Shown one piece after another: positions 26,232 to 39,787 of a stretch of DNA of 60,642 nucleotides. Origin of the DNA: a virus. Its lineage: Duplodnaviria; Caudoviricetes. Position 1 is the first letter of the stretch. Each line of letters begins with the position of its first letter. The stretch is taken from positions 1-60,642 of the IMG/VR virus record IMGVR_UViG_3300031673_000043; one strand, given 5' to 3'. A program made the translations under genes and the position numbers. The notes under the pieces are model-generated. The model was not told where the DNA came from and did not search any database. It saw only the letters and a program-made list of their open reading frames with translations.

Positions 26232-27729
26232 GAGAAGTCACTACCTCCGGGCTCTGTGGAATTTGTTCGTCACTCTTCTTCGGGATCAGTGCAGAGAACG
26301 CTCTGCTTGAAGCGTCCACTTGATCCTTGAAGTCACTGAAGGGGAACAGACAGAGCTCATCGAGATATTCATCATTCCATAAGCCTCGAACGAGCTTGAC
26401 GTTTCCAGCCTCGGCCTGAGCGCTGTAGGGCTCTGCTCTGGTCTCCTTGCTCCCTGTTTCAGTGGAGCATCTTACATTGTACCCTGCTAACAGTCTAACA
26501 AAATATTTGACCTGAGACTTCCCGGCCTGTCCAGGATCCTGAGGGAGATCTACTCTCACCATGTATCCGTCCTGTGACGTTGTGTTTTTGAGCGCCTGGT
26601 CAACTTTCCCTGGGGACCCTCTGAAGCGTATAACGTCCTCAACGTAGAAGATCCCCTCTGATGTTCTCCTCATCCTCACACCAGAAGTGAAGGCTGCAGA
26701 GATGGTCTCTGATGCAGCTAGATCCCAGCCTCTGACAACAGTCCCGGAGGCAGGAGCAGCATCTACAATCTCGAACCAGTCCCTCTTGAACATACCACCA
26801 CCGCGAGGAGTAGGACGCTGCTGGAACTGAGATGCTACAGCATAGGTTCCCATGTTCTTCTTGTCTCGCTCTACAACCTCCTCGGACATCCGAGCAGGCC
26901 AGAGGAGCTCGTTCTCCTTCTTCCGTGGATCTCTGAAGAAGTAAGTCTTGCACCTGGACTCAGGCTCGAACTCCATAGGGAGACAGAGATGAGTGTATCC
27001 CAGCTCCCTTGATATGATGTCTCCTGATACATCCTTGTCATGGACGCGCTGCATAATTACAACAATAGCGGAGGTCTCTGGATCATTGACTCGAGTAGTG
27101 ACTGACTCGTTGAACCACAGGAGCACTGCTCTTCTTTTCGCGTCACTCTCTCCTTCAATCACATTGTGAGGATCATCAATGATGAACCGATCCCCGCGCT
27201 CACCTGTACCGAGACCACCGACTGAGGTTGCTATCTTGAAACCATAGTGATCGGTGTCATAGCGGACCTTCGCGTTCTGGTCTCCTACAAGTTGAAACCG
27301 ATGTCCCCAGAGTCTCTGATACCAGTCAGACCTGAGGAGGTTCCTGCATCTTCGATTGTCTCTGATAGTGAGTGCTTCAGAGTAGGACGCGCTGACATAA
27401 CGGAGGCCGGGTTGATTGCGAGGTCCCCACTCCCAGGCAGGCCAGAAGACATCTGTGGTCAGAGACTTCATACAACCGGGAGGGATGTTTATGAGAAGAC
27501 GGATGATCTCTCCGTCACTTACTGCTTCGAGGTGTTCACAGATTGCTTCAATGTGCCAGCCGGGGACAAATTTTCTCTTCGGTTCCAGGACGTGCCAGCC
27601 GAGCTTAATGAAACTTAGGAGACTCTCAGCCGAGTCAACACGGTCGAGATCATCGAGGATCCTCTGAGCGTCTCCTGGTTCGAGTTGCTCTATTAAGGAG
27701 CTGTCTGAGATCATTCCTATCCCCTGCAT
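26224..27729 (-). CDS. terL: Terminase large subunit
   Basis: INIPPGCMKS (Walker A), IIDDPH (Walker B), MQRVH, GWDLA and DQVDA nuclease motifs; start may be 27714. Confidence 0.95.
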   Translation of the reverse strand: MQGIGMISDSSLIEQLEPGDAQRILDDLDRVDSAESLLSFIKLGWHVLEPKRKFVPGWHIEAICEHLEAVSDGEIIRLLINIPPGCMKSLTTDVFWPAWEWGPRNQPGLRYVSASYSEALTIRDNRRCRNLLRSDWYQRLWGHRFQLVGDQNAKVRYDTDHYGFKIATSVGGLGTGERGDRFIIDDPHNVIEGESDAKRRAVLLWFNESVTTRVNDPETSAIVVIMQRVHDKDVSGDIISRELGYTHLCLPMEFEPESRCKTYFFRDPRKKENELLWPARMSEEVVERDKKNMGTYAVASQFQQRPTPRGGGMFKRDWFEIVDAAPASGTVVRGWDLAASETISAAFTSGVRMRRTSEGIFYVEDVIRFRGSPGKVDQALKNTTSQDGYMVRVDLPQDPGQAGKSQVKYFVRLLAGYNVRCSTETGSKETRAEPYSAQAEAGNVKLVRGLWNDEYLDELCLFPFSDFKDQVDASSRAFSALIPKKSDEQIPQSPEVVTSHG

Positions 27730-28063
27730 CCAGTTTACTCACATCGATGTCAATAGGACCTCCGTCTTCGCCTGTGAGTTGAGTAGTAGACACATCTCTC
27801 TGTCCCAGTAAGTTCTTCCCGAGGAAGATTGCCATTTGAGCATTGACACCCGCTAGTCTCATCTGTTTCCTTCGGAGACTCAGGAGGCCTAGACTCTTCC
27901 CGCGCTCCCAGGCCTGACGGATCCGCTTGTCCTTCTTGAGTAGAGTATCGAACGTAGTGACACGGATCCCCAGGAACGCTGCAGCTTCCCGTTTAGTGCA
28001 CTGCAACCTCCCCAGCTTCTCGACATCAGCCGTCTTCACTATAGGTCTGTTGCTTTTTGACAT
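27650..28063 (-). CDS. terS: Terminase small subunit
   Basis: N-terminal HTH; MAIFLGKNLLGQRD and LTGEDGGPI; directly upstream of TerL. Confidence 0.8.
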   Translation of the reverse strand: MSKSNRPIVKTADVEKLGRLQCTKREAAAFLGIRVTTFDTLLKKDKRIRQAWERGKSLGLLSLRRKQMRLAGVNAQMAIFLGKNLLGQRDVSTTQLTGEDGGPIDIDVSKLDAGDRNDLRQLLNRATRTRRRSEDPR

Positions 28064-28073
28064 ATCTGATTGC

Positions 28074-28103
28074 AAAATAGACACAGCCCAGGAGATCTGT
28101 CAA
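28074..28103 (-). promoter_or_regulatory. Putative sigma70 promoter for the late operon
   Basis: TTGACA-N18-TATTTT just upstream of terS. Confidence 0.45.
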
Positions 28104-28133
28104 TACTTAATTAATAATAACTCGTTGACTTAT

Positions 28134-28151
28134 TTGATATTATATAATCGA
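28134..28151. promoter_or_regulatory. 18-bp operator-like motif, copy 1
   Basis: TTGATA-TTATAT-AATCGA. Confidence 0.6.
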
Positions 28152-28211
28152 GAGCGGACTGGAACAGATCCTGCAAAGATCCCTGTCGAGATATTCAACA
28201 AGGAGTAGGTC

Positions 28212-28280
28212 ATGATAGCTAGACTACTGAGAGACCTGGTCCATCGGATCCTAGAGGGATCTGGACGTTGCACCTGGTAG
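28212..28280 (+). CDS. Possible 22-aa peptide
   Basis: AGGAG RBS; MIARLLRDLVHRILEGSGRCTW. Confidence 0.3.
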   Translation: MIARLLRDLVHRILEGSGRCTW

Positions 28281-28284
28281 ACAA

Positions 28285-28315
28285 TGCAAAGTGAAGAGAA
28301 AGTCTGCAATATGCA
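28285..28315 (+). promoter_or_regulatory. Enhancer-like UAS of P1
   Basis: TGCA at 28285, 28305 and 28312. Confidence 0.6.
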
Positions 28316-28402
28316 GCACGGGACACCCGGATCTCTTTGGGCTCCCCTCGGACGTAGCAGGTAAGTCATTGCCACACAACACTCTTCCTCCTGGTGTTTT
28401 TC

Positions 28403-28418
28403 TGGCACGGTCCCTGCT
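28403..28418 (+). promoter_or_regulatory. sigma54 promoter P1
   Basis: TGGCACGGTCCCTGCT (GG-N10-GC). Confidence 0.85.
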
Positions 28419-28455
28419 ACGTCCTATAGTTAGAACGCAAACAAGGAGGACCGAG

Positions 28456-28752
28456 ATGACAAAGTGGAACGCGATAGAAGAAGGAACGAAGGCTGAAGTA
28501 GGATCCTACATCTGGCCTGACGGATGGGACGGATACGGATCGAGACTCGGTGACTGTGACTGGTGGGACAAGGCAGACTTCTTCGTCACCGGCAGACACA
28601 ACACCACAGCTGCTGTCAATATTACAGTTACGGGACGGACCTTCCAGAGGCCCTGGGGATTCAACGGTCCGAAGGCCGTCAGAGTGAGGATCGAGTTTGT
28701 CGGTGATGGTGAACCCTCGAGCTTCTCAGGAGCCTGGATGAAGATAGAATAG
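28456..28752 (+). CDS. Hypothetical protein (P1 cassette)
   Basis: Start revised to ATG 28456 after AAGGAGG. Confidence 0.75.
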   Translation: MTKWNAIEEGTKAEVGSYIWPDGWDGYGSRLGDCDWWDKADFFVTGRHNTTAAVNITVTGRTFQRPWGFNGPKAVRVRIEFVGDGEPSSFSGAWMKIE

Positions 28753-28787
28753 ATCCTCGAAGAAGACCTCCTTCACCCTGGGCAGGC

Positions 28788-28819
28788 TGCAGATTGCACC
28801 TGCCCTTCCCATATCTGCA
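28788..28819 (-). promoter_or_regulatory. Enhancer-like UAS of P2 (inverted)
   Basis: TGCA at 28788, 28795 and 28816. Confidence 0.6.
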
Positions 28820-28896
28820 CTACTCGAGGATCTGAAGGAGGGAACAACGAGGAACCACAGGGAACGCTCTGGAGCCCTGGGATCCTCGGGGACATT

Positions 28897-28912
28897 TGGC
28901 ACGGTGCTTGCT
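28897..28912 (+). promoter_or_regulatory. sigma54 promoter P2
   Basis: TGGCACGGTGCTTGCT, consensus match. Confidence 0.9.
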
Positions 28913-28963
28913 GATGTATATAGGTAGAACGCAACAAGAAGGCACCGAACAGGAGGAAAAGAG

Positions 28964-29131
28964 ATGTTCACAATAACGAAAAAAGAAAAAAAGGAAGAGA
29001 CGAAGAAGATGACTTACTGCACGGACTGCAGCTCGATCATCGAAGTGGACGCGGAGATGGGTGACTGGGTGAAGTGCCCTCACTGTGGTCTTCAGTTCAG
29101 GTTCACAAAGAGAGTCATCAGGAAGCGCTAG
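28964..29131 (+). CDS. 55-aa zinc-ribbon protein (absent from the ORF track)
   Basis: AGGAGG RBS; CTDC...CPHCG. Confidence 0.75.
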   Translation: MFTITKKEKKEETKKMTYCTDCSSIIEVDAEMGDWVKCPHCGLQFRFTKRVIRKR

Positions 29132-29170
29132 TCACAGGAAACAGAGAGAACATCAGCAGGAGGAGAAGAG

Positions 29171-29395
29171 ATGAAGAAGGAACAGTTGAAGGTTGAGATC
29201 TGGATCGGAGAAGGCACTCACACAATCGAGATCTACACGGACATCGAGATCTCGGAGATGCCGGTCCACCAGGAAGAGGTCACCGGGACTGTCAAGGGAG
29301 CGGTTGCGAGAGCGAAGTTCCTTGTCAGAGTGTACGGAGCCTCCGGTCTCGAGATCCATCACCCTGACGGTCAGAACACCGTTGTAGTGATGTAG
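29171..29395 (+). CDS. Hypothetical protein
   Basis: AGGAGGAG RBS. Confidence 0.7.
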   Translation: MKKEQLKVEIWIGEGTHTIEIYTDIEISEMPVHQEEVTGTVKGAVARAKFLVRVYGASGLEIHHPDGQNTVVVM

Positions 29396-29403
29396 GAGAT
29401 CAC

Positions 29404-29646
29404 ATGAGAGACAAGAAGCAGAGGATCAAGAAGGCAAGAGCGAACGGAGATGTCAGGAAGTTCGTGACAGCGCTCCGGCGCTCGAGAGGGAAGGGACTCG
29501 TTCTGAGACAGCTCAGGAACAGAGGGATCAAGGACAGCCCTGCTGCATACTATGGAGCACTCGAGGACGGGTTCCCAGTATACACCGAGAACGACAGGGA
29601 CCTGAATGGGAAGGCAGTCATCAGGTTCCTGATCGGAGCTGAATGA
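29404..29646 (+). CDS. Basic hypothetical protein
   Basis: AGGAG RBS; coupled to the next gene. Confidence 0.7.
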   Translation: MRDKKQRIKKARANGDVRKFVTALRRSRGKGLVLRQLRNRGIKDSPAAYYGALEDGFPVYTENDRDLNGKAVIRFLIGAE

Positions 29647-30101
29647 GGAAGGGGAAGATCATGAACGTCAAGAGACCACGGATCCAGCGGACCATGCAGA
29701 TCGGAGGGGAGAAGGTGAAGTTCATAGTCACCGCTCGCTCCTGGTACGGCAACCCGGCAGGATTCAAAGTGCAATGCTTCCGTGCACACCGAGAGCCTGT
29801 GGACTGGTTTTTCAACTGTCTGCAGAACACTGAAGCAGTGATGCTCGGGAAGAAGAAGCTCGAGGAGATCCAGAAGGAAGAGCTCGAGGAGAAGCAGCCC
29901 TCCAGGATGTTTCAAATCATGGGACGCTCCGGGATGACGCTGGGCACGGAGAGCGCTCGGACAGCCCAGGGAGCGCTCGACCTGTTCGCTCAGAAGAGAC
30001 ACTATGAGTCCTGGGAGGACATGAACAGGCAACTCGGGATGATCTCGAAGTACACCGTGCAGGACGGGTTCAGGATCATGCTCGATCAGAGCAGAGCCTG
30101 A
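29643..30101 (+). CDS. Hypothetical protein
   Basis: ATGA overlap with the previous gene. Confidence 0.65.
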   Translation: MRKGKIMNVKRPRIQRTMQIGGEKVKFIVTARSWYGNPAGFKVQCFRAHREPVDWFFNCLQNTEAVMLGKKKLEEIQKEELEEKQPSRMFQIMGRSGMTLGTESARTAQGALDLFAQKRHYESWEDMNRQLGMISKYTVQDGFRIMLDQSRA

Positions 30102-30103
30102 CC

Positions 30104-30119
30104 TGGCACGCGCCTTGCA
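30104..30119 (+). promoter_or_regulatory. sigma54 promoter P3 (no adjacent UAS seen)
   Basis: TGGCACGCGCCTTGCA, intergenic. Confidence 0.8.
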
Positions 30120-30155
30120 GGTCCTCGAGAGTGGACTTGAAAAAAGGAGAGACCG

Positions 30156-30386
30156 ATGAACAGACACTACGTTCTATATGACGAAGACATCCAGGCAGGC
30201 TGCAACGTGGACTACATGTCCGAAGAGTGTGCAGCTGCTGAGAACGAGAGACTCGAGCAGGAAGGAGCGTCAGTGAGATGGATTCTCTACGAGGATTATA
30301 TCAAGAGAGCAGAGCAGAGGAGCAGGTCACTCCGAGAGTTGCACTCCTCTGTAATCAAGAGACTCACTTCACAGTTCTCGAAGTGA
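30156..30386 (+). CDS. Hypothetical protein
   Basis: AAGGAG RBS. Confidence 0.7.
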   Translation: MNRHYVLYDEDIQAGCNVDYMSEECAAAENERLEQEGASVRWILYEDYIKRAEQRSRSLRELHSSVIKRLTSQFSK

Positions 30387-30532
30387 GGAGACCCTCCTGG
30401 GTTGTTGAAGTAGATCTCCCTGGTGGGCGGACTGGTCTAGGACCACTCATCTACACGAAGAAGAAGGAAGCAACAGAGGACGCGGATCTGATCGGAGGGA
30501 CCGTTGTCCCAGTCGAAGGAGTAGAGATATGA
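30383..30532 (+). CDS. Small hypothetical protein
   Basis: GTGA and ATGA overlaps on both sides. Confidence 0.5.
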   Translation: MRRPSWVVEVDLPGGRTGLGPLIYTKKKEATEDADLIGGTVVPVEGVEI

Positions 30533-30789
30533 GTAGAAGACAGGAACTGATTGAGAGCACGCTCGAGGACATCAGGATCCAGCACCGGAACCTGGACCAC
30601 AGATCAAAGGTCATCGGACGGCAGATCAAGAACAAGGTCATGATGGAAGGCAAAGCTCTTGCAGCTCTAGCGCTCCAGGGATCGATCAACCAGCTCAACA
30701 CCTGCAGCCCTGAGCAGTTCACTGACAAGGCTGCTCTCGCTATTGCAACCGGGATCCTCGAAGAGATGCAGGAGCAGATTGCACTCTAG
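30529..30789 (+). CDS. Hypothetical protein
   Basis: AAGGAG RBS. Confidence 0.7.
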   Translation: MSRRQELIESTLEDIRIQHRNLDHRSKVIGRQIKNKVMMEGKALAALALQGSINQLNTCSPEQFTDKAALAIATGILEEMQEQIAL

Positions 30790-30804
30790 TTCTCGGACTT
30801 TGCA
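30773..30804 (-). promoter_or_regulatory. Enhancer-like UAS of P4 (inverted)
   Basis: AGCA 30773, TGCA 30780, TGCA 30801; shares GCAGATTGCAC with P2. Confidence 0.6.
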
Positions 30805-30881
30805 ACACAGTGAGATATGGATCGAGGAACGATAAGGAACCACAGGAAGTGATAGGTAGTGACTGGACACGTCAGGGAATA

Positions 30882-30897
30882 TGGCACAGGAGTTGCT
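30882..30897 (+). promoter_or_regulatory. sigma54 promoter P4
   Basis: TGGCACAGGAGTTGCT. Confidence 0.88.
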
Positions 30898-30933
30898 GCT
30901 CTCCAGGGTAGAACTTCAACAGGAGGTCCCAGG

Positions 30934-31398
30934 ATGGCAAATAGATTTAGTACTTTCTTTAGGAGTGCAAAGCTCTGGGTACATAGGAGAAGCGAGAGCA
31001 GAGAAGTGGTCAGCAACGGGGAGTGCCTGTTCATCCTCCCTTTGGATCAGATACCACAAAAATTTCACCTCCCTATCAGGGGTTACGGGTGCTGGGAAGA
31101 GGGCATAGACACCCCCTTCCCTATTCCCCTTCGACGTGCTTTGTCTAGGTACCTCAGGGATGAGAGCTGTGTCTCTCTCACAGTGGAAAAGAGAGCAATA
31201 AGGCACGGGGACTATATTGTGCGCCTTTTAGTTGATTCCACTGGGGTGTTACAGATACCCGTACAGAGAAAGTATCTTCAGTATACTGCGTTCTTTTTTG
31301 GAAAAGGCCTAACATTCAAAACAACGAGTCAATGGGCCCCAGTTGCACTATACCAGGGGAAGAGGTACGTAGGATGCATCATGCCTATAAGGGTATAA
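30934..31398 (+). CDS. Hypothetical protein, AT-richer (P4 cassette)
   Basis: Start revised to ATG 30934 after AGGAGG. Confidence 0.7.
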   Translation: MANRFSTFFRSAKLWVHRRSESREVVSNGECLFILPLDQIPQKFHLPIRGYGCWEEGIDTPFPIPLRRALSRYLRDESCVSLTVEKRAIRHGDYIVRLLVDSTGVLQIPVQRKYLQYTAFFFGKGLTFKTTSQWAPVALYQGKRYVGCIMPIRV

Positions 31399-31451
31399 CC
31401 CAGCCGACCGGAGGGAGTGCCGGGGATCTTCGGGTCCTCGGCACTTCCCTC

Positions 31452-31483
31452 TTGAACTCTAACACTCGATTTGATATAATCGA
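31452..31483 (+). promoter_or_regulatory. sigma70 promoter overlapped by a palindromic operator (motif copy 2)
   Basis: TTGAAC-N17-TATAAT with extended TG; TCGATT-TGATAT-AATCGA at 31466..31483. Confidence 0.75.
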
Positions 31484-31509
31484 AGGACACACTCAACCAG
31501 GAGGCCGCA

Positions 31510-32634
31510 ATGAAGATCACAGTCAGCAAGAAGGAACTGCTCCTGTCCCTGAAGAAGGTCTGCTCAGTGACACCAGGGAAGACAACCCTCCCGATCCTGC
31601 AGTACGCTCTGATCGAGACGGACAAGCTCGGGACCGGGATCTCCTCCACCGATCTCGACCAGTGGGTCACCGTCAGGATCCACGGGAAGATCGAGAAGGC
31701 AGGCAAGGGGATCTTGCCAGTCAGGAAGATGGACAAGGCGCTGAAAGCCCTCCCTGGCAGCTCCGTCACCATCACCCTCGAGGGGAACAAGGTCTTCATG
31801 AAGTGCGGGAAGACAACCCTCGAGATGGAGACCAGGCCGCTCGAGGACTTCCCTCAGATTCCGAAGGTCAACTCCGAGTTCGGCCTCGAGATCGATCCCT
31901 TCCTCATGACCGAGATCCTGAAGAAGTCCCTGTATGCCGTCTCCACAGACCTCACCAGACCCGCGCTCACCGGGGTCCTGTTCCGTCTCAGCAAAGGCAG
32001 GCTCACTGTGGTCTCCACAGACGGGCACCGGCTCTGCAAGATCGAGACTGGAGCGGTCAAGATCCATGACACCAGGAAACCCCAAGACATCATCATCCCG
32101 TCAAAGAGCCTGAAGATCCTCCAGGACCACGCGGAGAAGGACGGCACACTCTGGGCTTACATCGGCCCGGATTGGATGCAGTTCTCAACCTATGACAATG
32201 AAGGCAAGGGAGTCATGCAACTCCGCTCCAGGCTCATCGAGGGACCTTTTCCGAAGTTCGAGAACGTCATCCCTCAGCACACAGACAAGACCTGCACGTT
32301 CTCGCGTGAGGATCTCCTCGCGTCCGTCAAGAGACTCTCGGTGTTCTCGAACAAGCCGACTAATCAGATCAAGTTCGAGGTCCAGCCGAAGAAGATCTCT
32401 CTGAGCGCTGAGAATGAGGAGCTCGGCAAGGCCTCCGAAGATCTCGAGTGTACAGCGAACAGCACGGTCACAGTCGGATACAATGCCCTCTACCTGCAGC
32501 AGGCCCTGAGCACCCTCGAGAGCGAGGAGCTCACGCTCAACCTGGAGAGACCGGACACTGCCGCACTTATCCAGGAGGAGCTCGAGGAGATCAAGCACAT
32601 GGTGATTGTCATGCCGCTGAGACTGGAGGGATGA
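31510..32634 (+). CDS. dnaN: DNA polymerase III beta sliding clamp
   Basis: 374 aa; TTLPIL, STDL, RPALTGV, STDGHRL, SRLIEGPFP..ENVIP, GYNALYL and VMPLRL motifs. Confidence 0.93.
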   Translation: MKITVSKKELLLSLKKVCSVTPGKTTLPILQYALIETDKLGTGISSTDLDQWVTVRIHGKIEKAGKGILPVRKMDKALKALPGSSVTITLEGNKVFMKCGKTTLEMETRPLEDFPQIPKVNSEFGLEIDPFLMTEILKKSLYAVSTDLTRPALTGVLFRLSKGRLTVVSTDGHRLCKIETGAVKIHDTRKPQDIIIPSKSLKILQDHAEKDGTLWAYIGPDWMQFSTYDNEGKGVMQLRSRLIEGPFPKFENVIPQHTDKTCTFSREDLLASVKRLSVFSNKPTNQIKFEVQPKKISLSAENEELGKASEDLECTANSTVTVGYNALYLQQALSTLESEELTLNLERPDTAALIQEELEEIKHMVIVMPLRLEG

Positions 32635-32635
32635 C

Positions 32636-32845
32636 ATGAGGAAGTGCACCACCTGTGGGAAGAGGAACCGCTCGGAGCGCTTCAAACAGTGCAAGCACTG
32701 CAGGGAAGTCGGAGCAGCGAGATCGAAGAGACGCTACGGCAGGCACAAGAGGAACGAGCGCTGTGTGAGGTGTGGAACGAAGAGGAAGAGCAAGTCCAGG
32801 TCCTACTGCAAGAAGTGCCTGGCATACCTGAGCAACTACTGGTAA
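32636..32845 (+). CDS. Basic Cys-rich zinc-finger protein
   Basis: Four CxxC pairs. Confidence 0.7.
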   Translation: MRKCTTCGKRNRSERFKQCKHCREVGAARSKRRYGRHKRNERCVRCGTKRKSKSRSYCKKCLAYLSNYW

Positions 32846-32854
32846 GGAGACATC

Positions 32855-33721
32855 ATGGCCCGCGAATACTTCAGAGACTGGAACCCGAACGACAGCACCA
32901 GGGCCCTCGTTGCCCAGTGTGCTCAGATCCTCGAGGAGCTCAGCGCTTACAGGCTCACCCTCCGGCAGCTCTACTACCAGCTGGTCTCGAGGAACATCAT
33001 CACGAACGAGGAGAGATCCTACAAGAACCTCAGCCGGGCAGTCACCCGCGCCAGGCTCGCCGGGATCCTGGACTGGGATGCAATCGAGGACCGTGTTCGA
33101 CAGCCGGACTTCCCTCCTGAGTTCAACAACCTCAAGGACCTGGTGGAGGCCGCGCTGAGATCCTACAGACTCCCGCGCTGGGACGGTCAGGAGTACTATG
33201 CCGAGCTCTGGGTCGAGAAGGATGCTCTGGCCTCCGTGCTCCGTCCCCTGGCCCGGAAGTACCACGTGGTCCTGATGGTCAACAGAGGGTACTCGAGCGC
33301 CTCGGCAATGTATGACGCGGCGAAGCGCTTCCTCGACCACAGGGACCAGGACTGCACGCTCTTCTACCTGGGGGATCTCGACCCCTCCGGTGAGGACATG
33401 GTCAGGGACATCTCGGACCGGCTCGCTGAGTTCAATGCTGATGTCCAGGTCGAGAAGATAGCGCTCACAATGGAGCAGGTCCAGGAGCACCAGCCTCCCC
33501 CGAACCCCGCGAAGATCACGGACCCTCGAGCAGCTGACTTCATTGCCCGGTATGGTCACGAGTCCTGGGAGGTCGATGCTCTCCCTCCTGCAGTACTCGA
33601 GCAGCTCATCTCCGAGAAGATCGAGAGCGTCCTGGATCTCACGCTCTACAGCGGAGTGATCCAGAAGGAGGAGCGAGACAAGCGGCTCCTGAAGAAGACC
33701 GTTGCCGGGCTCGAGGGATAG
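32855..33721 (+). CDS. Toprim-domain protein (Topo VI A/Spo11-like)
   Basis: LRQLYY, WVEKDAL, GYSS, YLGDLDPSG and EVDAL motifs. Confidence 0.75.
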   Translation: MAREYFRDWNPNDSTRALVAQCAQILEELSAYRLTLRQLYYQLVSRNIITNEERSYKNLSRAVTRARLAGILDWDAIEDRVRQPDFPPEFNNLKDLVEAALRSYRLPRWDGQEYYAELWVEKDALASVLRPLARKYHVVLMVNRGYSSASAMYDAAKRFLDHRDQDCTLFYLGDLDPSGEDMVRDISDRLAEFNADVQVEKIALTMEQVQEHQPPPNPAKITDPRAADFIARYGHESWEVDALPPAVLEQLISEKIESVLDLTLYSGVIQKEERDKRLLKKTVAGLEG

Positions 33722-33753
33722 TGCAAAGATCCTCCTGTTGATTGCGTTCTGCA
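33722..33753 (+). promoter_or_regulatory. Enhancer-like UAS of P5
   Basis: TGCA 33722, TGCG 33743, TGCA 33750. Confidence 0.55.
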
Positions 33754-33871
33754 CGTCCGCTTGACACCTCCTGAGCGGATCCCTCCGAGGCCCTGAGAGA
33801 CCCTCCACCGTAGAGAGCTGGCACTCAATAACTTACGGGGAGGGTCTTTCCATGTCTGGATCTCCTGAAAT

Positions 33872-33887
33872 TGGCACGGTCCCTGCT
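33872..33887 (+). promoter_or_regulatory. sigma54 promoter P5
   Basis: TGGCACGGTCCCTGCT, identical to P1. Confidence 0.85.
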
Positions 33888-33927
33888 ATAGCCTATAGTT
33901 AGGAACGCAAACAACAGGAGGCTTGAG

Positions 33928-34407
33928 ATGGAAAACTTCACCAGAGATAAGATACACGCCGAGATGGTCAAGGTCCTTCACCAGTATGTCTGTGCCTGGG
34001 GAGAGCATCACGAGGAGCTCACCGATCAGGGTCACATGGACGTAGTCACCAGGTGTGACGGGTTCGGTAGGATGAGCGCTGAGCAGCTCCAGGAGCTCGG
34101 GATCGAGTGGGACTGGTCACACGTCAGGGACAGCAGTGATGAGGCCATAGAGGAGGCCTATCAGGTTCTGATGACTATCCTCGAGGAGGTCAAGGCTCCG
34201 AGCTCGAAGAGATGCAGCAGCTACTCGGCTCAGGAGATCACCAGGGAGATCAAGGCTCTCCTGAAGAAGGCCTCCGAGACCTACGGCAAGAAGGTCAAGA
34301 AGATCGACCACATGATCGAGATCTTCGGCAACCCCACCGAGTCCGTCCGTCTGACCGTGGTGTTCGAGGTCGAGGGACGGCAGGTCAGGACCTCCTGTGC
34401 ACTCTGA
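33928..34407 (+). CDS. Hypothetical protein (P5 cassette)
   Basis: AGGAGG RBS. Confidence 0.75.
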   Translation: MENFTRDKIHAEMVKVLHQYVCAWGEHHEELTDQGHMDVVTRCDGFGRMSAEQLQELGIEWDWSHVRDSSDEAIEEAYQVLMTILEEVKAPSSKRCSSYSAQEITREIKALLKKASETYGKKVKKIDHMIEIFGNPTESVRLTVVFEVEGRQVRTSCAL

Positions 34408-34433
34408 GATCTCAACCAGGGTGCCGCGTTCGG

Positions 34434-34468
34434 GGAGCTCGGGTCCACAGGATCCGGGCTCTCTTTTT
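34434..34468 (+). terminator. Putative intrinsic terminator
   Basis: GAGCTCGGGTCC/GGATCCGGGCTC stem followed by TCTTTTT. Confidence 0.55.
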
Positions 34469-34504
34469 GCAGTAAATCTCTGCACTTTGCACTCTGCAGC
34501 TGCA
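34468..34504 (+). promoter_or_regulatory. Enhancer-like UAS of P6
   Basis: TGCA at 34468, 34481, 34488, 34495 and 34501. Confidence 0.55.
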
Positions 34505-34612
34505 GGATCCGGGGCCCCCGTTCTCCTCGAGGCGAAAAGACCCCCCGTATAACCCTATGTAATAACAGCTTATTACAGCCCGATTTTCTCCTCGAGGCGA
34601 GCCGGGAGGGAC

Positions 34613-34628
34613 TGGCACAGGCCTTGCT
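34613..34628 (+). promoter_or_regulatory. sigma54 promoter P6
   Basis: TGGCACAGGCCTTGCT. Confidence 0.9.
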
Positions 34629-34665
34629 ATGGTATAGGGTAGGAACGCAAACAGGAGGTCAAGAG

Positions 34666-35508
34666 ATGAACGGAACCAGCAAGAGAACAGATCCCCACCG
34701 AGTCGGAGCAATCAACCCCGAGGATTATGAGTACCACATGAGCTTCAGCGGGGCCTCGACTGTGGACGGTTGGCCTATCCCCCCGATGTATGTGGACGTG
34801 GTCATCGAGATGAAGAAGGCCGGGGAGCTCGTGAACATTCACAACTCGATCTTCCAGTGTGACGTGTGCGGCGCTCACTACGTGCACGGTGAGGTCTGGT
34901 ACCACATCCCGAGCGGGAAGTACACCACCATCGGTCACGAGTGCGCGGCGAAGTACAACCTGGTCACTGACTACAGTCACTATGACAGTGTCTACCAGGC
35001 TCACATCACGAAGGCCGTCAGGAGAGCTCGCAGGATCCAGGCCTGGAGATCGATGAGGAACATCATGAGCAACTACCCGGATCTCAGGGAGGCCTTCAAG
35101 GTTGACAACGAAGTCACCCGCGACATCCGGTCCAGGTTCATCCAGTTCGGGACCATCAGCATGAAGCAGATCGAGCTCCTCAGGACCCTCAAGAAGAGAG
35201 CCGATGAGCAGGCCGCTGAGACCTGGATCGATGCCCCTGAGGGACGCTTCGAGATCATCGGCACCGTGCTCAGCGCCAGGGTCGATGAGGGCCCCTACGG
35301 GATGACCTACAAGATGCTGGTCAAGGTCGATACTGAGGCCGGATCCTGGAAGACCTGGGGGACCGTCCCGAAGAGCATCACGGACGCGCCCTACTTCAGC
35401 CTGCAGGATCTCAAGGGCTGCACTGTCCGCTTCACCGGTACGGTCAAAAGAGCTGATGACCAGGGGTTCAGCTTCTTCTCGAGACCGGTCAAGGGTGAGG
35501 TCCTCTAA
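34666..35508 (+). CDS. Hypothetical protein with Cys/His cluster and OB-fold-like C-terminus (P6 cassette)
   Basis: Start revised to ATG 34666; CDVCG...GHEC; beta-rich C-terminus ending FFSRP. Confidence 0.7.
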   Translation: MNGTSKRTDPHRVGAINPEDYEYHMSFSGASTVDGWPIPPMYVDVVIEMKKAGELVNIHNSIFQCDVCGAHYVHGEVWYHIPSGKYTTIGHECAAKYNLVTDYSHYDSVYQAHITKAVRRARRIQAWRSMRNIMSNYPDLREAFKVDNEVTRDIRSRFIQFGTISMKQIELLRTLKKRADEQAAETWIDAPEGRFEIIGTVLSARVDEGPYGMTYKMLVKVDTEAGSWKTWGTVPKSITDAPYFSLQDLKGCTVRFTGTVKRADDQGFSFFSRPVKGEVL

Positions 35509-35570
35509 GAGATCCACAGGAGGGGAGCTCGAGATCTCGAACGGGCTCCCCTGGTAGTTTACTTTCCCAT

Positions 35571-35602
35571 TGCAAAACAAAACTACCAGAGTGCAACCTG
35601 CA
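35571..35602 (+). promoter_or_regulatory. Enhancer-like UAS of P7
   Basis: TGCA at 35571, 35592 and 35599. Confidence 0.6.
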
Positions 35603-35667
35603 CGGGATCTCGACCGGTACCGGGGATCCCCGCTCCTGTAACTTGTTATATATCAACACCCGCTGAC

Positions 35668-35683
35668 TGGCACGGCGCTTGCT
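35668..35683 (+). promoter_or_regulatory. sigma54 promoter P7
   Basis: TGGCACGGCGCTTGCT. Confidence 0.9.
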
Positions 35684-35721
35684 ATGACTATAGGTAGAAC
35701 GCAAACAAGAAGGAGATCGAG

Positions 35722-35883
35722 ATGACGAACGAGAAGAAGATAGACAGCAAGACCGACACCAGGAGCCTCTGGGAGATCGAGATGCCGGTTGCAGATCTGA
35801 GACCTGGGAAGATCGAGACCGTTGAGAGTCTACATGACAGAGTCCGTCACGCTCGAGAGATGAGCTTCAGCAACTACCGTTAA
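35722..35883 (+). CDS. 53-aa hypothetical protein (absent from the ORF track)
   Basis: AAGGAG RBS in the conserved leader; MTNEKKIDSK...FSNYR. Confidence 0.7.
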   Translation: MTNEKKIDSKTDTRSLWEIEMPVADLRPGKIETVESLHDRVRHAREMSFSNYR

Positions 35884-35918
35884 TGGACACTAACCGGAAG
35901 TAACTGACACGGAGGTGC

Positions 35919-36233
35919 ATGATGAAAAGATGTGAACAGTGTGGGGGGAATCGTTTCTACCTCCTACTTGGCCTCAATGCAGAGGGACGCTTTGACGATG
36001 AGGGGACAATGGTGGTTTCCGGTATAGAGGCATCCCTCGACCATACGATAGAGTCAATGGAGTGCGCGGAGTGCGGCGCAGTGCACGAGGAACCAGTAGG
36101 GCGCGTCTTCGATCGTTTCTCCACTGAACCTGTAAAAGTACGGGTCGAGAGGGGAGTAGCAGAGGTGGAAAGGAACCCCCACCCGGCTATTGAAGTAGAG
36201 ATAGAGGACCTTGACCTAGACGTGAGGATGTGA
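35919..36233 (+). CDS. Zinc-ribbon hypothetical protein
   Basis: GGAGG RBS; CEQCG...CAECG. Confidence 0.7.
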   Translation: MMKRCEQCGGNRFYLLLGLNAEGRFDDEGTMVVSGIEASLDHTIESMECAECGAVHEEPVGRVFDRFSTEPVKVRVERGVAEVERNPHPAIEVEIEDLDLDVRM

Positions 36234-36250
36234 ACCTCTGGTCCAGACAC

Positions 36251-36290
36251 AGAGAGAGCTCCCGTCCGTGAGGATAGGAGCTCTTCTTCT
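36251..36290. terminator. Putative bidirectional terminator
   Basis: AGAGCTCC/GGAGCTCT stem between convergent genes. Confidence 0.55.
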
Positions 36291-36308
36291 GTCCGCTAGG
36301 CTCCCCTG

Positions 36309-36728
36309 CTACTCATACCAGTAGTCCAGGATGCAGTATGCAGCTGTCCCGGTGAACACCTCGACCGAGTCGATCTCAGGACCGTAGAACATCATGTCAT
36401 AGGTCTGAGTGATGACCACTCCCCCAGGGTAGGTGAGCGTCCTCCAGGTCCCTGATCCTACATCCTTGATCTTCACCTGGACCGAGTCCACCGCGTTCGA
36501 TCCTACCTTGACAGTGAGTCTCCAGAACCTACTCGAGTGATCGAGCGCTTCAGGAACCCCGTCAGTCCCTGGTCTCCATAGTGCTGTCCCGAAGTAAGGG
36601 TATCCGGGAGGACGGTCAATCCTCGCGTGTGCGTCATCCGGTGGAGGAGGGACATCGAACATCAAGAGCAATGCCGTTGCCACTACCACCAGGACTGCAG
36701 CGAGTAAGATCTTGAACTTCTTGTTCAT
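36309..36728 (-). CDS. Exported or membrane-anchored protein
   Basis: MNKKFKILLAAVLVVVATALLL signal/anchor. Confidence 0.7.
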   Translation of the reverse strand: MNKKFKILLAAVLVVVATALLLMFDVPPPPDDAHARIDRPPGYPYFGTALWRPGTDGVPEALDHSSRFWRLTVKVGSNAVDSVQVKIKDVGSGTWRTLTYPGGVVITQTYDMMFYGPEIDSVEVFTGTAAYCILDYWYE

Positions 36729-36778
36729 GATGCACCTCCTCCTGGGAGCCTAATGCTAGAGCTCTATAGTGTCAAGTC

Positions 36779-37144
36779 CTACTTGCACGCTCCCCGGAGG
36801 AAGGTATCGACCTGCTCAACCAGGCGCTGAGCTTCGGTGTTCGAGGGCACGGTTCCGATCTTGCTCCTCCAAACAACAGCGGACCTGACCACAGGGAGCA
36901 CCTGGAGCAGCGTACCTGCAATGACAGGTATCTCGGTCCGCGCCTTGATCCCGAGTTCGTCATCCCTCATCGGTTCCTTCAGCGTGCTCAGGAATGTAGC
37001 ACACCGGGTTGTCATGCTAGGATCGATACAGGGGACTGACATGATCCCGTGCTCCACCAGGACGGCCTGCAGATCTGGAGTGAGTTCCCCACCATAGAGG
37101 AGCTTCTGGAACGCGCTCTTCAGTTCGTCATACTTCTCCGGCAT
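36779..37144 (-). CDS. Hypothetical protein
   Basis: Start revised to MPEKYDE. Confidence 0.6.
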   Translation of the reverse strand: MPEKYDELKSAFQKLLYGGELTPDLQAVLVEHGIMSVPCIDPSMTTRCATFLSTLKEPMRDDELGIKARTEIPVIAGTLLQVLPVVRSAVVWRSKIGTVPSNTEAQRLVEQVDTFLRGACK

Positions 37145-37145
37145 A

Positions 37146-37367
37146 TCAGTCACTCTCCTCTCTCGGCATCTCCGGCGCTTCACTCTCGAAGATGACTGTG
37201 AGGACGTTCGTGTCCTTGTCCTTGAGGTACCCGAGGAGCTCCTCGAGTGTGGTGTTGATCTCGAAGACTTGAGTGAGATCAACCTGCTTCGTTGCAGGAC
37301 CGGCCTGAGTCATCACTGGTCTCACGGTCTTAGTGATGACAACCGCTCTCTTCTTTCCTTGAGGCAT
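37146..37367 (-). CDS. Hypothetical protein
   Basis: AGGAG RBS. Confidence 0.65.
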   Translation of the reverse strand: MPQGKKRAVVITKTVRPVMTQAGPATKQVDLTQVFEINTTLEELLGYLKDKDTNVLTVIFESEAPEMPREESD

Positions 37368-37538
37368 GTGGTCTCCTGTTCTGTCTGTGGTCTAGTCGAA
37401 CGGGTTCCACCACTTCCCGTCCTTCTCGACCTGTAGGGTGTCTACCTTGACAACGGTGTCCGGTGGTTCGTGTTCACCGGTCTCTCCTTCCTGGTATCCT
37501 GGTACTCGAGCGAGTCATACCACAGGAGAGCACGCGAG

Positions 37539-37949
37539 TCAACCGAAGAACTCAGCGTCATACTCCTCGGTGTAGCGTCTCGAGATCAGGGGACCATAGA
37601 AGCGCTTCTTGTCCCGCTCGTTCTCGCTCCTGGATCCATAGCGCAAGTTGTCAGCGTGATTGTTCGAGGGATCCCCGTCCAGGTGCCTGACGTGAGCTTC
37701 CTCTCCGTCATACAGTGGAGGATCCCCGTGGAAGGCCTTGCAGATGAGACGGTGCAACCAGTAGGTGTGACGGATCCCCGCGTGCATGATCCTGATCTTC
37801 CGGTGTCCGTACTGGTTGCCCTGGTGGGAGCGGACCTCTCCCTGCTTCGGTCCCTTTACCCTGAAGACCCTACCGTCTCGATGGATCTCATGGTTCGGGA
37901 GCTCCTCGAGGATGACTACCTGGAGGATCTCTTCTGCTGGATCCGTCAC
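37539..37949 (-). CDS. HNH endonuclease-like protein
   Basis: HRLICKAFHG...RHLDGDPSNNHADNLRYG. Confidence 0.8.
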   Translation of the reverse strand: MTDPAEEILQVVILEELPNHEIHRDGRVFRVKGPKQGEVRSHQGNQYGHRKIRIMHAGIRHTYWLHRLICKAFHGDPPLYDGEEAHVRHLDGDPSNNHADNLRYGSRSENERDKKRFYGPLISRRYTEEYDAEFFG

Positions 37950-38266
37950 TTCAACTGATCCCCTGGGATCTCGACCTCGGACTGGATGACCTGGTCACCT
38001 ATAGTGAGCTCAAGCGTCAGCACCGCCTTCAGGACCCTGGCCTTGAGTGGGAGGGTGATCTCTCGAGGGACAGGGACCTTCCCGCTCTTCTTGCCGTGGG
38101 ATCTCTTCTTGCCCTTCTTCGTCTCGGGCGCTATGTAGACCTGACACGTACAACCGTCCTGGGTGCAAGAACACGGGACACTCTTCTCCTTCCCGTGCAC
38201 CATCTTCCTCATCCGGTGAAGGTTGTAGTCATGACCGCACTCTGCACATGGTTTTCTCACAGGCAT
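37946..38266 (-). CDS. Cys/His-rich hypothetical protein
   Basis: Start revised to MPVRKPC; CAECGH...CSC...CTC. Confidence 0.6.
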   Translation of the reverse strand: MPVRKPCAECGHDYNLHRMRKMVHGKEKSVPCSCTQDGCTCQVYIAPETKKGKKRSHGKKSGKVPVPREITLPLKARVLKAVLTLELTIGDQVIQSEVEIPGDQLK

Positions 38267-38268
38267 AA

Positions 38269-38781: not shown

Positions 38782-38874
38782 TGCGGTCTCCTTCCGTTGT
38801 GTGAATAGAAGAAGGTGCAGGGGACTGAGTATGAGCTCAACCTCCTGCACCTCTTGCCACCAGATCAGGCGCTG

Positions 38875-39147: not shown

Positions 39148-39159
39148 GAGGTCACCTCC

Positions 39160-39717: not shown

Positions 39718-39787
39718 AGTGAGTCTCCTTGTAGTTGTGGGAGCTGAGTGCTGAGGGGACTACACCCAGCTCCCGGACCAGGCACGT

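What the first reader, a model, noticed from the sequence alone, without database searches (positions are those of the whole stretch)
28403..35683. Seven sigma54 (RpoN) promoters drive a phage small-gene region
Seen: seven intergenic, co-oriented TGGCAC-N5-(T/C)TGC(T/A) sites at 28403, 28897, 30104, 30882, 33872, 34613 and 35668. All have exact GG-N10-GC spacing and sit about 35-50 nt before an RBS-led ATG. Established: this is the sigma54 -24/-12 consensus, and such promoters are silent without an AAA+ enhancer-binding protein (bEBP). From memory, sigma54 promoters were reported for Pseudomonas phage YuA in its structural/lysis region. Here they form a dense array over non-structural small genes. 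Inference: the phage couples an accessory or host-takeover programme to a host signalling state.
Basis: partly seen in the sequence, partly recalled or inferred. Interest (0 to 1): 0.92.

Follow-up and report, generated by a model that had tools for sequence, protein, structure and literature searches.

The report
Seven sigma-54 promoter cassettes in phage
An uncultivated, apparently lytic 60-kb phage carries seven near-perfect sigma-54 promoters, most with an enhancer-like palindrome about 100 bases upstream, in front of short operons of unknown small genes, which suggests that part of its programme runs only when a host activator protein is switched on.

Summary
There are seven exact TGGCAC-N5-YTGCW sites where 0.10 are expected. 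All lie on the + strand, 36-51 nt (motif end to ATG) before SD-led start codons, and all within 28.4-35.7 kb of a complete 60.6-kb phage genome. In a leave-one-out PWM scan they are the top 7 of about 121,000 positions. The only invariant columns are the sigma-54 -24/-12 elements.

New here: the palindrome TGCA-N3-TGCA occurs 6 times (0.9 expected), always inside or just past this block. It lies 76-132 nt upstream of four promoters, and one-mismatch copies lie at 109 and 129 nt upstream of two more. These distances are helically phased.

The closest relative found (L083) keeps palindrome, promoter and start-site box at the orthologous spot, in front of an unrelated gene. The units therefore behave as promoter cassettes with variable cargo.

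The phage encodes no bEBP, sigma-54, sigma-70-family factor or RNA polymerase that I could detect, and no integrase.

Best reading: host sigma-54 RNA polymerase, fired by a host NtrC/LuxO-class activator. The host, the activator and the cargo functions are unknown, and no RNA data exist.

Similar sigma-54 site arrays turned up in unrelated viral genomes. In print I found one sigma-54-like phage promoter (YuA).

The parts
28403..28455 (+). Promoter module P1: -24/-12 core 28403-28418, start-site box (CTATAGTTAGAACGCAAACA), SD. Drives ORF 28456-28752 (98 aa).
28897..28963 (+). Promoter module P2: core 28897-28912, start-site box, SD. Drives the 4-gene operon 28964-30101 (55-aa zinc ribbon, 74, 80 and 152 aa).
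30104..30155 (+). Promoter module P3: core 30104-30119, starting 2 nt after the upstream stop codon. The start-site box is degenerate. Drives 30156-30789.
30882..30933 (+). Promoter module P4: core 30882-30897. Drives ORF 30934-31398 (154 aa).
33872..33927 (+). Promoter module P5: core 33872-33887. Drives ORF 33928-34407 (159 aa). This module is conserved at the orthologous place in relative L083.
34613..34665 (+). Promoter module P6: core 34613-34628. Drives ORF 34666-35508 (280 aa, a widespread family of viral hypothetical proteins).
35668..35721 (+). Promoter module P7: core 35668-35683. Drives ORFs 35722-35883 and 35922-36233.
28305..28315 (.). Enhancer-like palindrome TGCA-N3-TGCA (exact), 98 nt before P1.
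28781..28798 (.). Enhancer-like doublet: a 1-mismatch copy at 28781 and an exact copy at 28788, the latter 109 nt before P2. It also forms the top of hairpin 28780-28805.
30773..30783 (.). Palindrome with 1 mismatch, 109 nt before P4, inside the 3' end of ORF 30529-30789.
33743..33753 (.). Palindrome with 1 mismatch, 129 nt before P5. The L083 orthologue has an exact copy at the same distance.
34481..34498 (.). Two overlapping exact palindromes (three TGCA half-sites at 7-nt steps), 132 and 125 nt before P6.
35592..35602 (.). Exact palindrome, 76 nt before P7.
30194..30211 (.). Doublet of 1-mismatch palindromes inside ORF 30156-30386, 90 nt downstream of P3. It is a possible downstream enhancer for P3, which has no copy at the usual upstream distance. 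Uncertain.
34426..34470 (+). GC-rich hairpin followed by UUUUUG after ORF 33928-34407. This is a terminator-like insulator between units P5 and P6.
35521..35589 (+). Two hairpins after ORF 34666-35508, between units P6 and P7.
36249..36300 (+). Hairpin with a U-rich 3' side after the last unit (ORF 35922-36233), at the convergent junction with the minus-strand block.

Best explanation
The seven sites are promoters read by the host's sigma-54 RNA polymerase holoenzyme. Each heads a short, separately insulated transcription unit of one to four small phage genes.

Shown by sequence:
- Exact -24/-12 elements.
- An A/T-rich 'TATAG' box where melting and the start (about 12 nt after the GC) are expected.
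- A 26-41 nt leader with a strong SD.

Inferred:
- Sigma-54 holoenzyme cannot open DNA by itself, and the phage encodes no AAA+ enhancer-binding protein. A host NtrC/LuxO-class activator would therefore bind the TGCA-N3-TGCA palindromes 76-132 nt upstream, on one face of the helix, loop over to the closed complex and fire it by ATP hydrolysis.
- This block would then be expressed only when that host activator is active. The clamp operon and the small-gene block from 40.8 kb lie behind canonical sigma-70-type promoters, and other blocks are preceded by sigma-70-like matches.
- The module (palindrome, promoter and leader) also behaves as a portable cassette that carries different cargo genes in related phages.
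For: Statistics and consensus:
- 7 exact sites against 0.10 expected, all co-oriented.
- They are the top 7 of about 121,000 positions in the leave-one-out scan, with a 5-bit gap to the next hit.
- The only 2-bit columns across the 7 sites plus L083 are TGGCAC and TGC. The N5 spacer varies.
- The sites fit the printed consensus YTGGCACG-N4-TTGCW (passage in PMC3352281): Y 6/7, TGGCAC 7/7, G 5/7, TTGC 5/7 (CTGC 2/7), W 7/7.

Enhancer-like elements:
- TGCA-N3-TGCA has 6 exact copies against 0.91 expected (0 of 100 shuffles reach 6), all between 28305 and 36342.
- 6 of 7 promoters have a copy with at most 1 mismatch 60-150 nt upstream, while only 5.8% of genome positions do (0 of 20,000 random draws).
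- The distances 76, 98, 109, 109, 129 and 129 (L083) fall within 2.5-4.0 nt of one helical phase (Rayleigh R 0.95, p about 0.0006; p 0.004-0.03 with P6 included).

Out-of-sample check: L083 (69% aa identity in the neighbouring gene, syntenic on both sides) has its single exact palindrome 129 nt before its single full promoter module at the orthologous spot. The cargo gene there is unrelated (E = 32).

No alternative transcription machinery in the phage:
- No PF00158, PF04552, PF04542 or PF00940 in six frames.
- Every ORF of 450 aa or more falls into one of two groups. Most are assigned to a function: tape measure, tail proteins, portal, terminase, primase-helicase, PolA, SNF2 helicase. One (19383-20804, 473 aa) matches only PHROGs of unknown function and lies in the head-tail block.

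Units are separated by hairpins, two of them with U-rich tails.

Precedent: one sigma-54-like promoter in phage YuA is supported by TSS mapping and a promoter trap (passage in PMC10914365).
Against: - There is no expression evidence of any kind. No RNA run holds this DNA.
- The host is unknown, so the presence of rpoN and of a matching bEBP cannot be checked.
- Conservation is shallow. Of the 162 related loci fetched up to (1.76 Mb), only L083 has a full module, and the others have 0-1 strict sites.
- The seven copies share about 45 nt and may be recent duplicates. Part of their similarity may therefore be descent rather than selection.
- The palindrome was found by looking at these same regions. 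Two of the six are one-mismatch copies, and such copies are common (45 in the genome). P3 has none at the usual distance. P5 and L083 are orthologous, and P2 and P4 share upstream sequence, so the phasing test has fewer independent points than it seems.
- As 4-bp stems the palindromes could also be RNA hairpin tops, as at 28780-28805.
- P1 and P5 can also be read as sigma-70 promoters (YTGGCA-N17-TATAGT).
- In the diverged variant of run X5 the alignment breaks across the P6 core (joint 34491 to 34641), so P6 may not be conserved there.
Confidence: 0.7

Rival explanations
1. They are ordinary sigma-70 promoters with YTGGCA as the -35 element and TATAGT/TATAGG as the -10 element. The resemblance to sigma-54 sites would then be incidental.
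For: The consensus scan lists 33871-33899 (TTGGCA-17-TATAGT, 10 of 12) and 28402-28430 (CTGGCA-17-TATAGT, 9 of 12). A TATAG box is present in 5 of 7 promoters and in L083.
Against: One search shows:
- The essential last T of the -10 is present in only 4 of 8, and two of those match just 2-3 of 6.
- The spacer ranges from 15 to 18.
- P3 and P4 have no credible -10.
- The invariant columns are TGGCAC and the TGC that would lie in a sigma-70 spacer, where nothing should be constrained.
- The first -35 base carries only 0.6 bits.

The phage's own sigma-70-type promoters are close to consensus (TTGACA-18-TATAAT and TTGAAC-17-TATAAT). The host sigma-70 therefore appears to read the standard motif.
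Confidence: 0.07
2. They are promoters for a phage-encoded sigma factor or RNA polymerase that the family models do not recognise, that is, a phage-specific middle promoter class.
For: The repeated unit is longer than a sigma-54 core (about 45 nt with a conserved start region), as in phage-specific promoters. Most of the phage's small proteins are ORFans. YuA has a phage-specific motif class that needs extra factors (passage). The PF00940 search had no positive control.
Against: An 11-position match to the sigma-54 consensus in all 7 copies is very unlikely for an unrelated specificity. No ORF is large enough and unassigned to be a polymerase. No sigma-70 region 2 or sigma-54 DNA-binding domain was found in six frames. 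An enhancer-like element at the usual distance for bEBP enhancers (recalled) and in helical phase fits sigma-54.
Confidence: 0.06
3. The repeats are mainly recombination or boundary modules that shuffle gene cassettes, like PeSLs of T4-type phages. Promoter activity would be secondary or absent.
For: The module is conserved while the cargo is replaced between the window and L083. The window has three units where L083 has one. Hairpins adjoin 4 of 7 promoters. The abstract of PMC2839356 describes promoter plus stem-loop cassettes that mediate modular shuffling.
Against: This does not explain why the invariant bases are exactly the sigma-54 contacts while the spacer varies. It also does not explain the phased palindromes. 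PeSLs are themselves active promoters, so this is more a complement than a rival.
Confidence: 0.1
4. The sites bind sigma-54 holoenzyme as stable closed complexes without productive transcription. They would act as sinks or roadblocks that manipulate host sigma-54 or shape read-through from the upstream promoter region near 28.1 kb.
For: Other viral genomes have tandem sites only 53-60 nt apart that cannot each precede a gene (G003, G005). A TATAATCGA box at 28143 points into the block.
Against: In the window every site is placed 36-51 nt before an SD-led start codon, with a conserved leader. This is the layout of working promoters. Most have enhancer-like elements.
Confidence: 0.04

Closest known systems
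Sigma-54-like promoter P015 of Pseudomonas phage YuA (PMC10914365 passages, citing Ceyssens 2008b, which I did not see)
   Same: A siphovirus-type lytic phage that uses host sigma-54 as well as sigma-70 promoters.
   Different: The passages name one such YuA promoter. Here there are seven in 7.3 kb, with a shared leader and enhancer-like palindromes. No relatedness to YuA was shown: the best cultured-phage terminase hits are below 50% and belong to other phages.
Bacterial enhancer-dependent sigma-54 promoters, e.g. Vibrio qrr promoters with LuxO sites (consensus TTGCA-N3-TGCAA as printed in PMC3352281)
   Same: -24/-12 core, with a TGCA-N3-TGCA palindrome core about 100 nt upstream.
   Different: The full 13-nt LuxO consensus is met by 0 of 6 exact copies, because the flanks differ. 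The host is unknown, and GC is 52%. The elements are in a phage genome that has no activator gene.
PeSL mobile regulatory cassettes of T4-type phages (PMC2839356, abstract)
   Same: Small repeated promoter-plus-hairpin modules between small ORFan genes in a plastic region. Cargo differs between relatives.
   Different: PeSLs carry sigma-70-like early promoters. These carry sigma-54 promoters with upstream palindromes. Mini-circles and recombination were not examined.
Sigma-54 site arrays in other uncultivated viral genomes found here (G002, G003, G005)
   Same: Clusters of 5-11 strict sites against 0-1 for the reversed pattern. In G002, five sites lie 29-54 nt before SD-led starts of small-gene operons.
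   Different: There is no protein similarity to the window in the stretches fetched and no TGCA-N3-TGCA in the G002 stretch. In G003 and G005 the sites are tandem at 53-60 nt and cannot each serve a gene.

Membership tests
Sigma-54 (-24/-12) promoter | GG and GC doublets exactly 10 nt apart | tested here: met
   7 of 7 sites.
Sigma-54 (-24/-12) promoter | Extended consensus YTGGCACG-N4-TTGCW (as printed in PMC3352281) | tested here: met
   Y 6/7, TGGCAC 7/7, G 5/7, TTGC 5/7 (CTGC 2/7), W 7/7. Scores are 19.5-23.3 bits against 14.6 for the next hit.
Sigma-54 (-24/-12) promoter | Lies upstream of, and co-oriented with, a gene | tested here: met
   All 7 are on the + strand, 36-51 nt from motif end to an SD-led ATG.
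Sigma-54 (-24/-12) promoter | Transcript starts about 11-13 nt after the GC | not testable with these tools
   No RNA run holds the stretch.
Sigma-54 (-24/-12) promoter | Enhancer (UAS) for a bEBP, usually about 70-150 nt upstream | tested here: inconclusive
   There is a candidate palindrome at 76-132 nt in 6 of 7, helically phased. No binding data exist. The motif was found post hoc, and P3 lacks one.
Sigma-54 (-24/-12) promoter | Transcription depends on rpoN and on ATP hydrolysis by a bEBP | not testable with these tools
   This needs an experiment. The phage has no PF00158 match.
Sigma-54 (-24/-12) promoter | The host encodes sigma-54 | not testable with these tools
   Host not identified.
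LuxO-type enhancer | 13-nt site TTGCA-N3-TGCAA | tested here: not met
   The 11-nt core is present in 6 copies, but the full site with T and A flanks is present in 0 of 6.
PeSL-type mobile regulatory cassette | Promoter joined to a stem-loop terminator, between small ORFs of a plastic region | tested here: met
   There are hairpins before P2, P5, P6 and P7 and after the last unit, and none before P1, P3 or P4. Cargo differs from L083.
PeSL-type mobile regulatory cassette | The promoter is sigma-70-like (early) | tested here: not met
   The invariant bases are the sigma-54 elements.
Yuavirus (YuA-like phages) | Sequence relatedness to YuA | not tested
   No direct comparison was made. The 25 best cultured-phage terminase hits are other phages at 36-48% identity.

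The most novel reading that the evidence does not exclude
Sigma-54 promoter cassettes are a recurrent phage strategy that I did not find described in print. Lytic phages of unrelated lineages (this one with L083, and G002, G003 and G005) carry arrays of sigma-54 promoters. This phage has no detectable enhancer-binding protein gene; the others were not searched for one.

Two readings follow:
- Whole blocks of accessory genes are gated by the state of a host activator. Here that would be an NtrC/LuxO-like protein reading TGCA-N3-TGCA, so infection would proceed differently according to a host signal such as nutrient status or cell density.
- Alternatively, one of the phage's ORFan proteins is a new kind of non-AAA+ activator or bypass factor for sigma-54.

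The tandem arrays with 53-60 nt spacing in other phages could make short RNAs or soak up sigma-54 holoenzyme.
Probability: 0.3. Interest if true: 0.85.

Novelty: new variant of a known kind. Interest (0 to 1): 0.66.

Why it matters
Phage transcription programmes are usually explained by three means: host sigma-70, phage sigma factors or phage polymerases.

Sigma-54 differs in kind. It is silent until an ATP-driven activator, normally the output of a signalling pathway, fires it. A lytic phage that puts seven operons under sigma-54 control without bringing an activator would tie a sixth of its genes to a host signal. That would be a way for a virus to read host physiology.

The cassettes also offer compact natural parts (enhancer, promoter, leader and RBS in about 180 nt). 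In addition, the survey here suggests that such arrays occur in several unrelated phages. In my searches the literature held only one sigma-54-like phage promoter.

Tried and rejected
RNA evidence: the look-up of sequencing runs listed no RNA holder, so transcript starts could not be read.

Population variation: read laying on runs X3-X6 showed a diverged variant in X5 over most of the block. The per-position table was truncated (256 rows not shown), and the cap is one call. No motif-level conservation could therefore be read. Small-share runs were not used for habitat.

Host:
- Cultured-phage searches gave only distant hits (terminase below 50%, clamp below 31%).
- Megablast of the block against phages found nothing.
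- The one genome-contig scan, with the clamp, returned a single 30%-identity fragment.
- Amino-acid composition looks mesophilic, which removed my early guess of a thermophile.

Extended promoter-plus-leader pattern in IMG/VR: 0 matches.

Shared upstream k-mers other than the palindrome were not above control windows.

IHF-like sites: I saw A/T-rich TAAC...TTA stretches by eye between palindrome and promoter in P5-P7. No consistent consensus match emerged, and they are not claimed.

The hairpin with an apparently conserved loop between the P5 palindrome and promoter gave an inconclusive result in a two-sequence alifold.

The weaker site at 36667(-) has 1 mismatch and lies inside a gene. It was rejected as a promoter.

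Cargo function: Pfam, PHROGs, NCBIfam and one Atlas query gave no function. Structure prediction was not run.

G002 upstream regions have no shared palindrome.

Whole-record scan of L083-L085 and L092: the records are not held, so the part of the L083 genome that would hold equivalents of P1-P4 was not seen.

Literature:
- Searches (listings and abstract starts only) showed no paper on a phage sigma-54 promoter array.
- Ceyssens 2008b was not seen.
- Supplements are closed, and Table S3 of PMC10914365 may list YuA promoter positions.
- phiSITE (PMC2808901) mentions sigma-54 only in its reference list.

Full report
WHAT THE WINDOW IS

The window is a whole virus record of 60,642 nt. It has a 143-nt overlap between its two ends (D2), so it is a closed or terminally redundant genome.

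My ORF calls and family searches give the following map.

- 91-27,729 (minus strand): a structural block with terminase, Mu-like portal, major head protein, tail tube, tape measure and tail proteins.
- 28,456-36,233 (plus strand): a block that holds all seven sites.
- 36,309-40,042 (minus strand): a convergent block.
- From 40.8 kb: further blocks with a primase-helicase, a UDG-PolA fusion interrupted by an intein with an HNH domain, a PD-(D/E)XK nuclease and an SNF2 helicase.

No tyrosine integrase, serine recombinase or Cro/CI-type HTH appears in six frames, so the phage is probably virulent. It has no tRNA genes. Protein composition looks mesophilic.

THE OBSERVATION

- The pattern TGGCAC-N5-YTGCW occurs 7 times, at exactly the stated coordinates and all on the + strand. 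Shuffles give 0.10.
- In a leave-one-out PWM scan, each site is outscored only by the other sites among about 121,000 positions. With the full PWM the seven score 19.5-23.3 bits and the next hit scores 14.6.
- Relaxing to two mismatches adds nothing convincing: 21 found against 12.6 expected.
- Each site ends 36-51 nt before an ATG that is preceded by an AGGAG-type SD.
- Five sites lie fully outside my gene calls. Two are clipped by weak opposite-strand ORF calls that are probably spurious. One starts 2 nt after a stop codon.

ANATOMY OF THE MODULE

The repeat is longer than the 16-nt core. After the core, most copies carry a short variable stretch, then CTATAG(G/T)TAGAACGCAAACA, then the SD. 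This downstream box occurs only with the sites: 5 of the 7 genome-wide matches at up to 2 mismatches belong to them.

Across the seven sites plus the L083 copy, the only invariant (2-bit) columns are TGGCAC and TGC. The N5 spacer and the downstream box vary. The predicted start, 12 nt after the GC, falls within the TATAG box and leaves a leader of 26-41 nt.

The units are:

| Promoter | Drives |
|---|---|
| P1 | one gene |
| P2 | four genes |
| P3 | 30156-30789 |
| P4 | one gene |
| P5 | one gene |
| P6 | one gene |
| P7 | two genes |

The clamp, a 69-aa ORF and a topoisomerase-like gene (31510-33721) lie inside the block. They sit behind a near-consensus sigma-70-type promoter (TTGAAC-17-TATAAT with TG).

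ENHANCER-LIKE PALINDROMES

The palindrome TGCA-N3-TGCA occurs 6 times in the genome against 0.91 expected (0 of 100 shuffles reach 6). All copies lie between 28,305 and 36,342.

- Five of the six exact copies lie 76-132 nt before P1, P2, P6 (two overlapping copies) and P7.
- P4 and P5 have one-mismatch copies at 109 and 129 nt.
- In all, 6 of 7 promoters have a copy with at most 1 mismatch 60-150 nt upstream, whereas 5.8% of genome positions do (0 of 20,000 random draws).
- The distances share one helical phase: 2.5-4.0 nt modulo 10.5. Rayleigh R is 0.95, with p about 0.0006 without P6 and 0.004-0.03 with it.

Caveats:

- The motif was noticed in these same regions.
- One-mismatch copies are common (45 found against 19 expected).
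- P3 has only a copy at 53 nt and a doublet 90 nt downstream.
- Some points are not independent, because P5 and L083 are orthologues and P2 and P4 share upstream sequence.
- The P2 copy forms the top of a hairpin.

The 11-nt core equals the core of the printed LuxO site, but the full 13-nt site is met by none of the six copies.

INSULATION

GC-rich hairpins follow the units that end at 28752, 33721, 34407, 35508 and 36233. The hairpins after 34407 and 36233 have U-rich tails. None precedes P3 or P4.

RIVALS

Sigma-70 reading. The consensus scan flags P1 and P5 as YTGGCA-17-TATAGT. Over all eight promoters:

- the -10 candidate keeps its essential last T in only four, and two of those match 2-3 of 6;
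- spacers range from 15 to 18;
- the invariant TGC would lie in a sigma-70 spacer.

The phage's true sigma-70-type promoters are near consensus.

Own polymerase or sigma factor. No PF00940, PF04542, PF04552 or PF00158 match was found in six frames. The PF00940 search had no ringing control. However, every ORF of 450 aa or more is either assigned a function or, in one case (19383-20804), matches only unknown-function PHROGs inside the head-tail block.

RELATIVES

- The first relative found (L001/G001; 48% aa identity in the topoisomerase-like protein, high GC) has no site.
- Eighty terminase relatives at up to 65% identity have 0-1 strict sites each.
- A metagenome scan with an alignment of the topoisomerase-like protein gave 80 more loci. 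Over all 162 loci (1.76 Mb) there are 10 strict sites, and only L083 has two.
- L083 (69% aa) is syntenic with the window on both sides: clamp 38%, the small ORF 54%, topoisomerase-like 69%, and the convergent block 29-69%.
- At the orthologous spot L083 has an exact palindrome, then 129 nt later TGGCAC-N5-TTGCT, then the TATAG-TAGAAC box, an SD and an ATG. The gene behind it is unrelated to the window's (E = 32).
- L083 has one such unit where the window has three.
- Its second strict site lacks the box and lies inside an ORF.
- No other locus has a full module, and eleven further relatives (GC 0.41-0.68) have nothing at that spot.
- The rest of the L083 contig could not be reached.

OTHER PHAGES

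The number of strict sites per stretch was:

| Strict sites in the stretch | Number of stretches |
|---|---|
| 1 | 101 |
| 2 | 9 |
| 3 | 5 |
| 4, 5, 6, 9, 10 | 1 each |

Whole-record scans of five of them gave the counts below, against 0-1 for the reversed pattern.

| Record | Size and state | Strict sites |
|---|---|---|
| G003 | 93.9 kb, terminal repeats, complete | 13, of which 10 are co-oriented within 2.1 kb |
| G005 | 48.7 kb, complete | 5, all within 270 nt near one end |
| G002 | 57.7 kb | 11 |
| G004 | 35.1 kb, about 21% complete | 6 |
| G006 | 21.6 kb, about 34% complete | 4 |

- In G002, five sites lie 29-54 nt before SD-led starts of small-gene operons.
- In G003 and G005 many sites are only 53-60 nt apart.
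- The fetched stretches show no protein similarity to the window.

LITERATURE

- Passages of PMC10914365 state that YuA depends on sigma-70 and sigma-54. They also state that one sigma-54-like promoter (P015) was seen by ONT-cappable-seq, consistent with an earlier promoter trap.
- PMC3352281 prints the sigma-54 and LuxO-site consensus sequences.
- The abstract of PMC2839356 describes PeSL promoter/stem-loop cassettes that shuffle genes in T4-type phages.
- Six searches, for which I saw listings only, showed no report of a sigma-54 promoter array in a phage.

MECHANISM AND VERDICT

Shown by sequence:

- seven sigma-54-consensus promoters in promoter position;
- a shared start region and leader;
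- enriched, phased palindromes at enhancer distance;
- hairpin insulation;
- one orthologous module conserved with swapped cargo;
- no phage gene for a bEBP, sigma factor or polymerase.

Inferred:

- Host sigma-54 holoenzyme binds these sites.
- A host NtrC/LuxO-class activator bound at the palindromes loops over and fires them.
- The block is therefore conditional on that activator's state.
- The modules spread as cassettes.

Unknown: the host, the activator, the signal, the timing and the cargo functions.

This is a new variant of a known kind. Sigma-54 promoters are well known, and one phage case is in print. I did not find in print an enhancer-equipped array on a lytic phage without its own activator. 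I also did not find in print that such arrays recur in unrelated viral genomes.

Noticed in passing
G003:C1:16674-18802; G005:C1:46741-47009; G002:C1:15631-26340; G004; G006 (loci L204, L280, L163, L217, L216, L283-L285): Unrelated viral genomes, two of them complete with terminal repeats, carry clusters of 4-13 strict sigma-54 sites against 0-1 for the reversed pattern. Some are tandem at 53-60 nt spacing, too close for each to precede a gene, which suggests short RNAs or holoenzyme sinks. In G002, five sites precede SD-led small-gene operons.
   Followed up: partly
window 31452-31480, 40702-40731, 28143-28151: Three copies of TATAATCGA occur where 0.07 are expected. Two have a canonical -35 (TTGAAC-17 and TTGACA-18) and look like strong sigma-70-type promoters, for the clamp operon and for the 40.8-kb small-gene block. 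The third has TTGACT at only 12 nt.
   Followed up: partly
window 1-143 and 60500-60642: A 143-nt direct repeat at the two ends (99% identical). This is an assembly overlap of a circular or terminally redundant genome, although the record is classed 'linear'.
   Followed up: no
window 27650-28103 (- strand): My gene caller missed an ORF listed at 27650-28084 (-). Read by eye, it looks like a small-terminase-type HTH protein starting at an ATG near 28066 without an SD. That ATG lies just downstream of a TTGACA-18-TATTTT match (28103-28074), so the late-operon mRNA may be leaderless. No family search was run.
   Followed up: no
window 51236-54580: A uracil-DNA-glycosylase domain is fused to a family-A DNA polymerase. 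The polymerase is interrupted by an intein carrying an HNH endonuclease domain.
   Followed up: no
whole window: GATC occurs 661 times, and GGATC/GATCC occurs 521 times in 60.6 kb. From base composition I would expect roughly 240 and 120 (my estimate; no shuffle control was run).
   Followed up: no
window 36325-36342: An orphan palindrome doublet (one exact TGCA-N3-TGCA copy) lies just past the end of the block, inside the 3' end of the convergent gene 36309-36728. No sigma-54 site is at a matching distance.
   Followed up: no
window 33795-33850 and L083:2372-2446: Between the P5 palindrome and promoter lies a long hairpin. Its loop sequence (GCTGGC.C...ACTTACGG) is conserved in L083, and its stem appears to change in a compensatory way. 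The two-sequence consensus fold was inconclusive.
   Followed up: partly
window 28840-28880 and 30830-30860: The regions upstream of P2 and P4 share GGAAC..A..AGGAACCACAGG, which the other promoters lack. This suggests that these two cassettes are duplicates of each other.
   Followed up: no
window 27700-36500, run X5: One run holds a diverged variant of the block, for example 55 differences and 10 gaps over 28350-28771. Alignment breaks occur at 28771-28841 and 34491-34641. This would be a useful second relative if it were assembled.
   Followed up: partly
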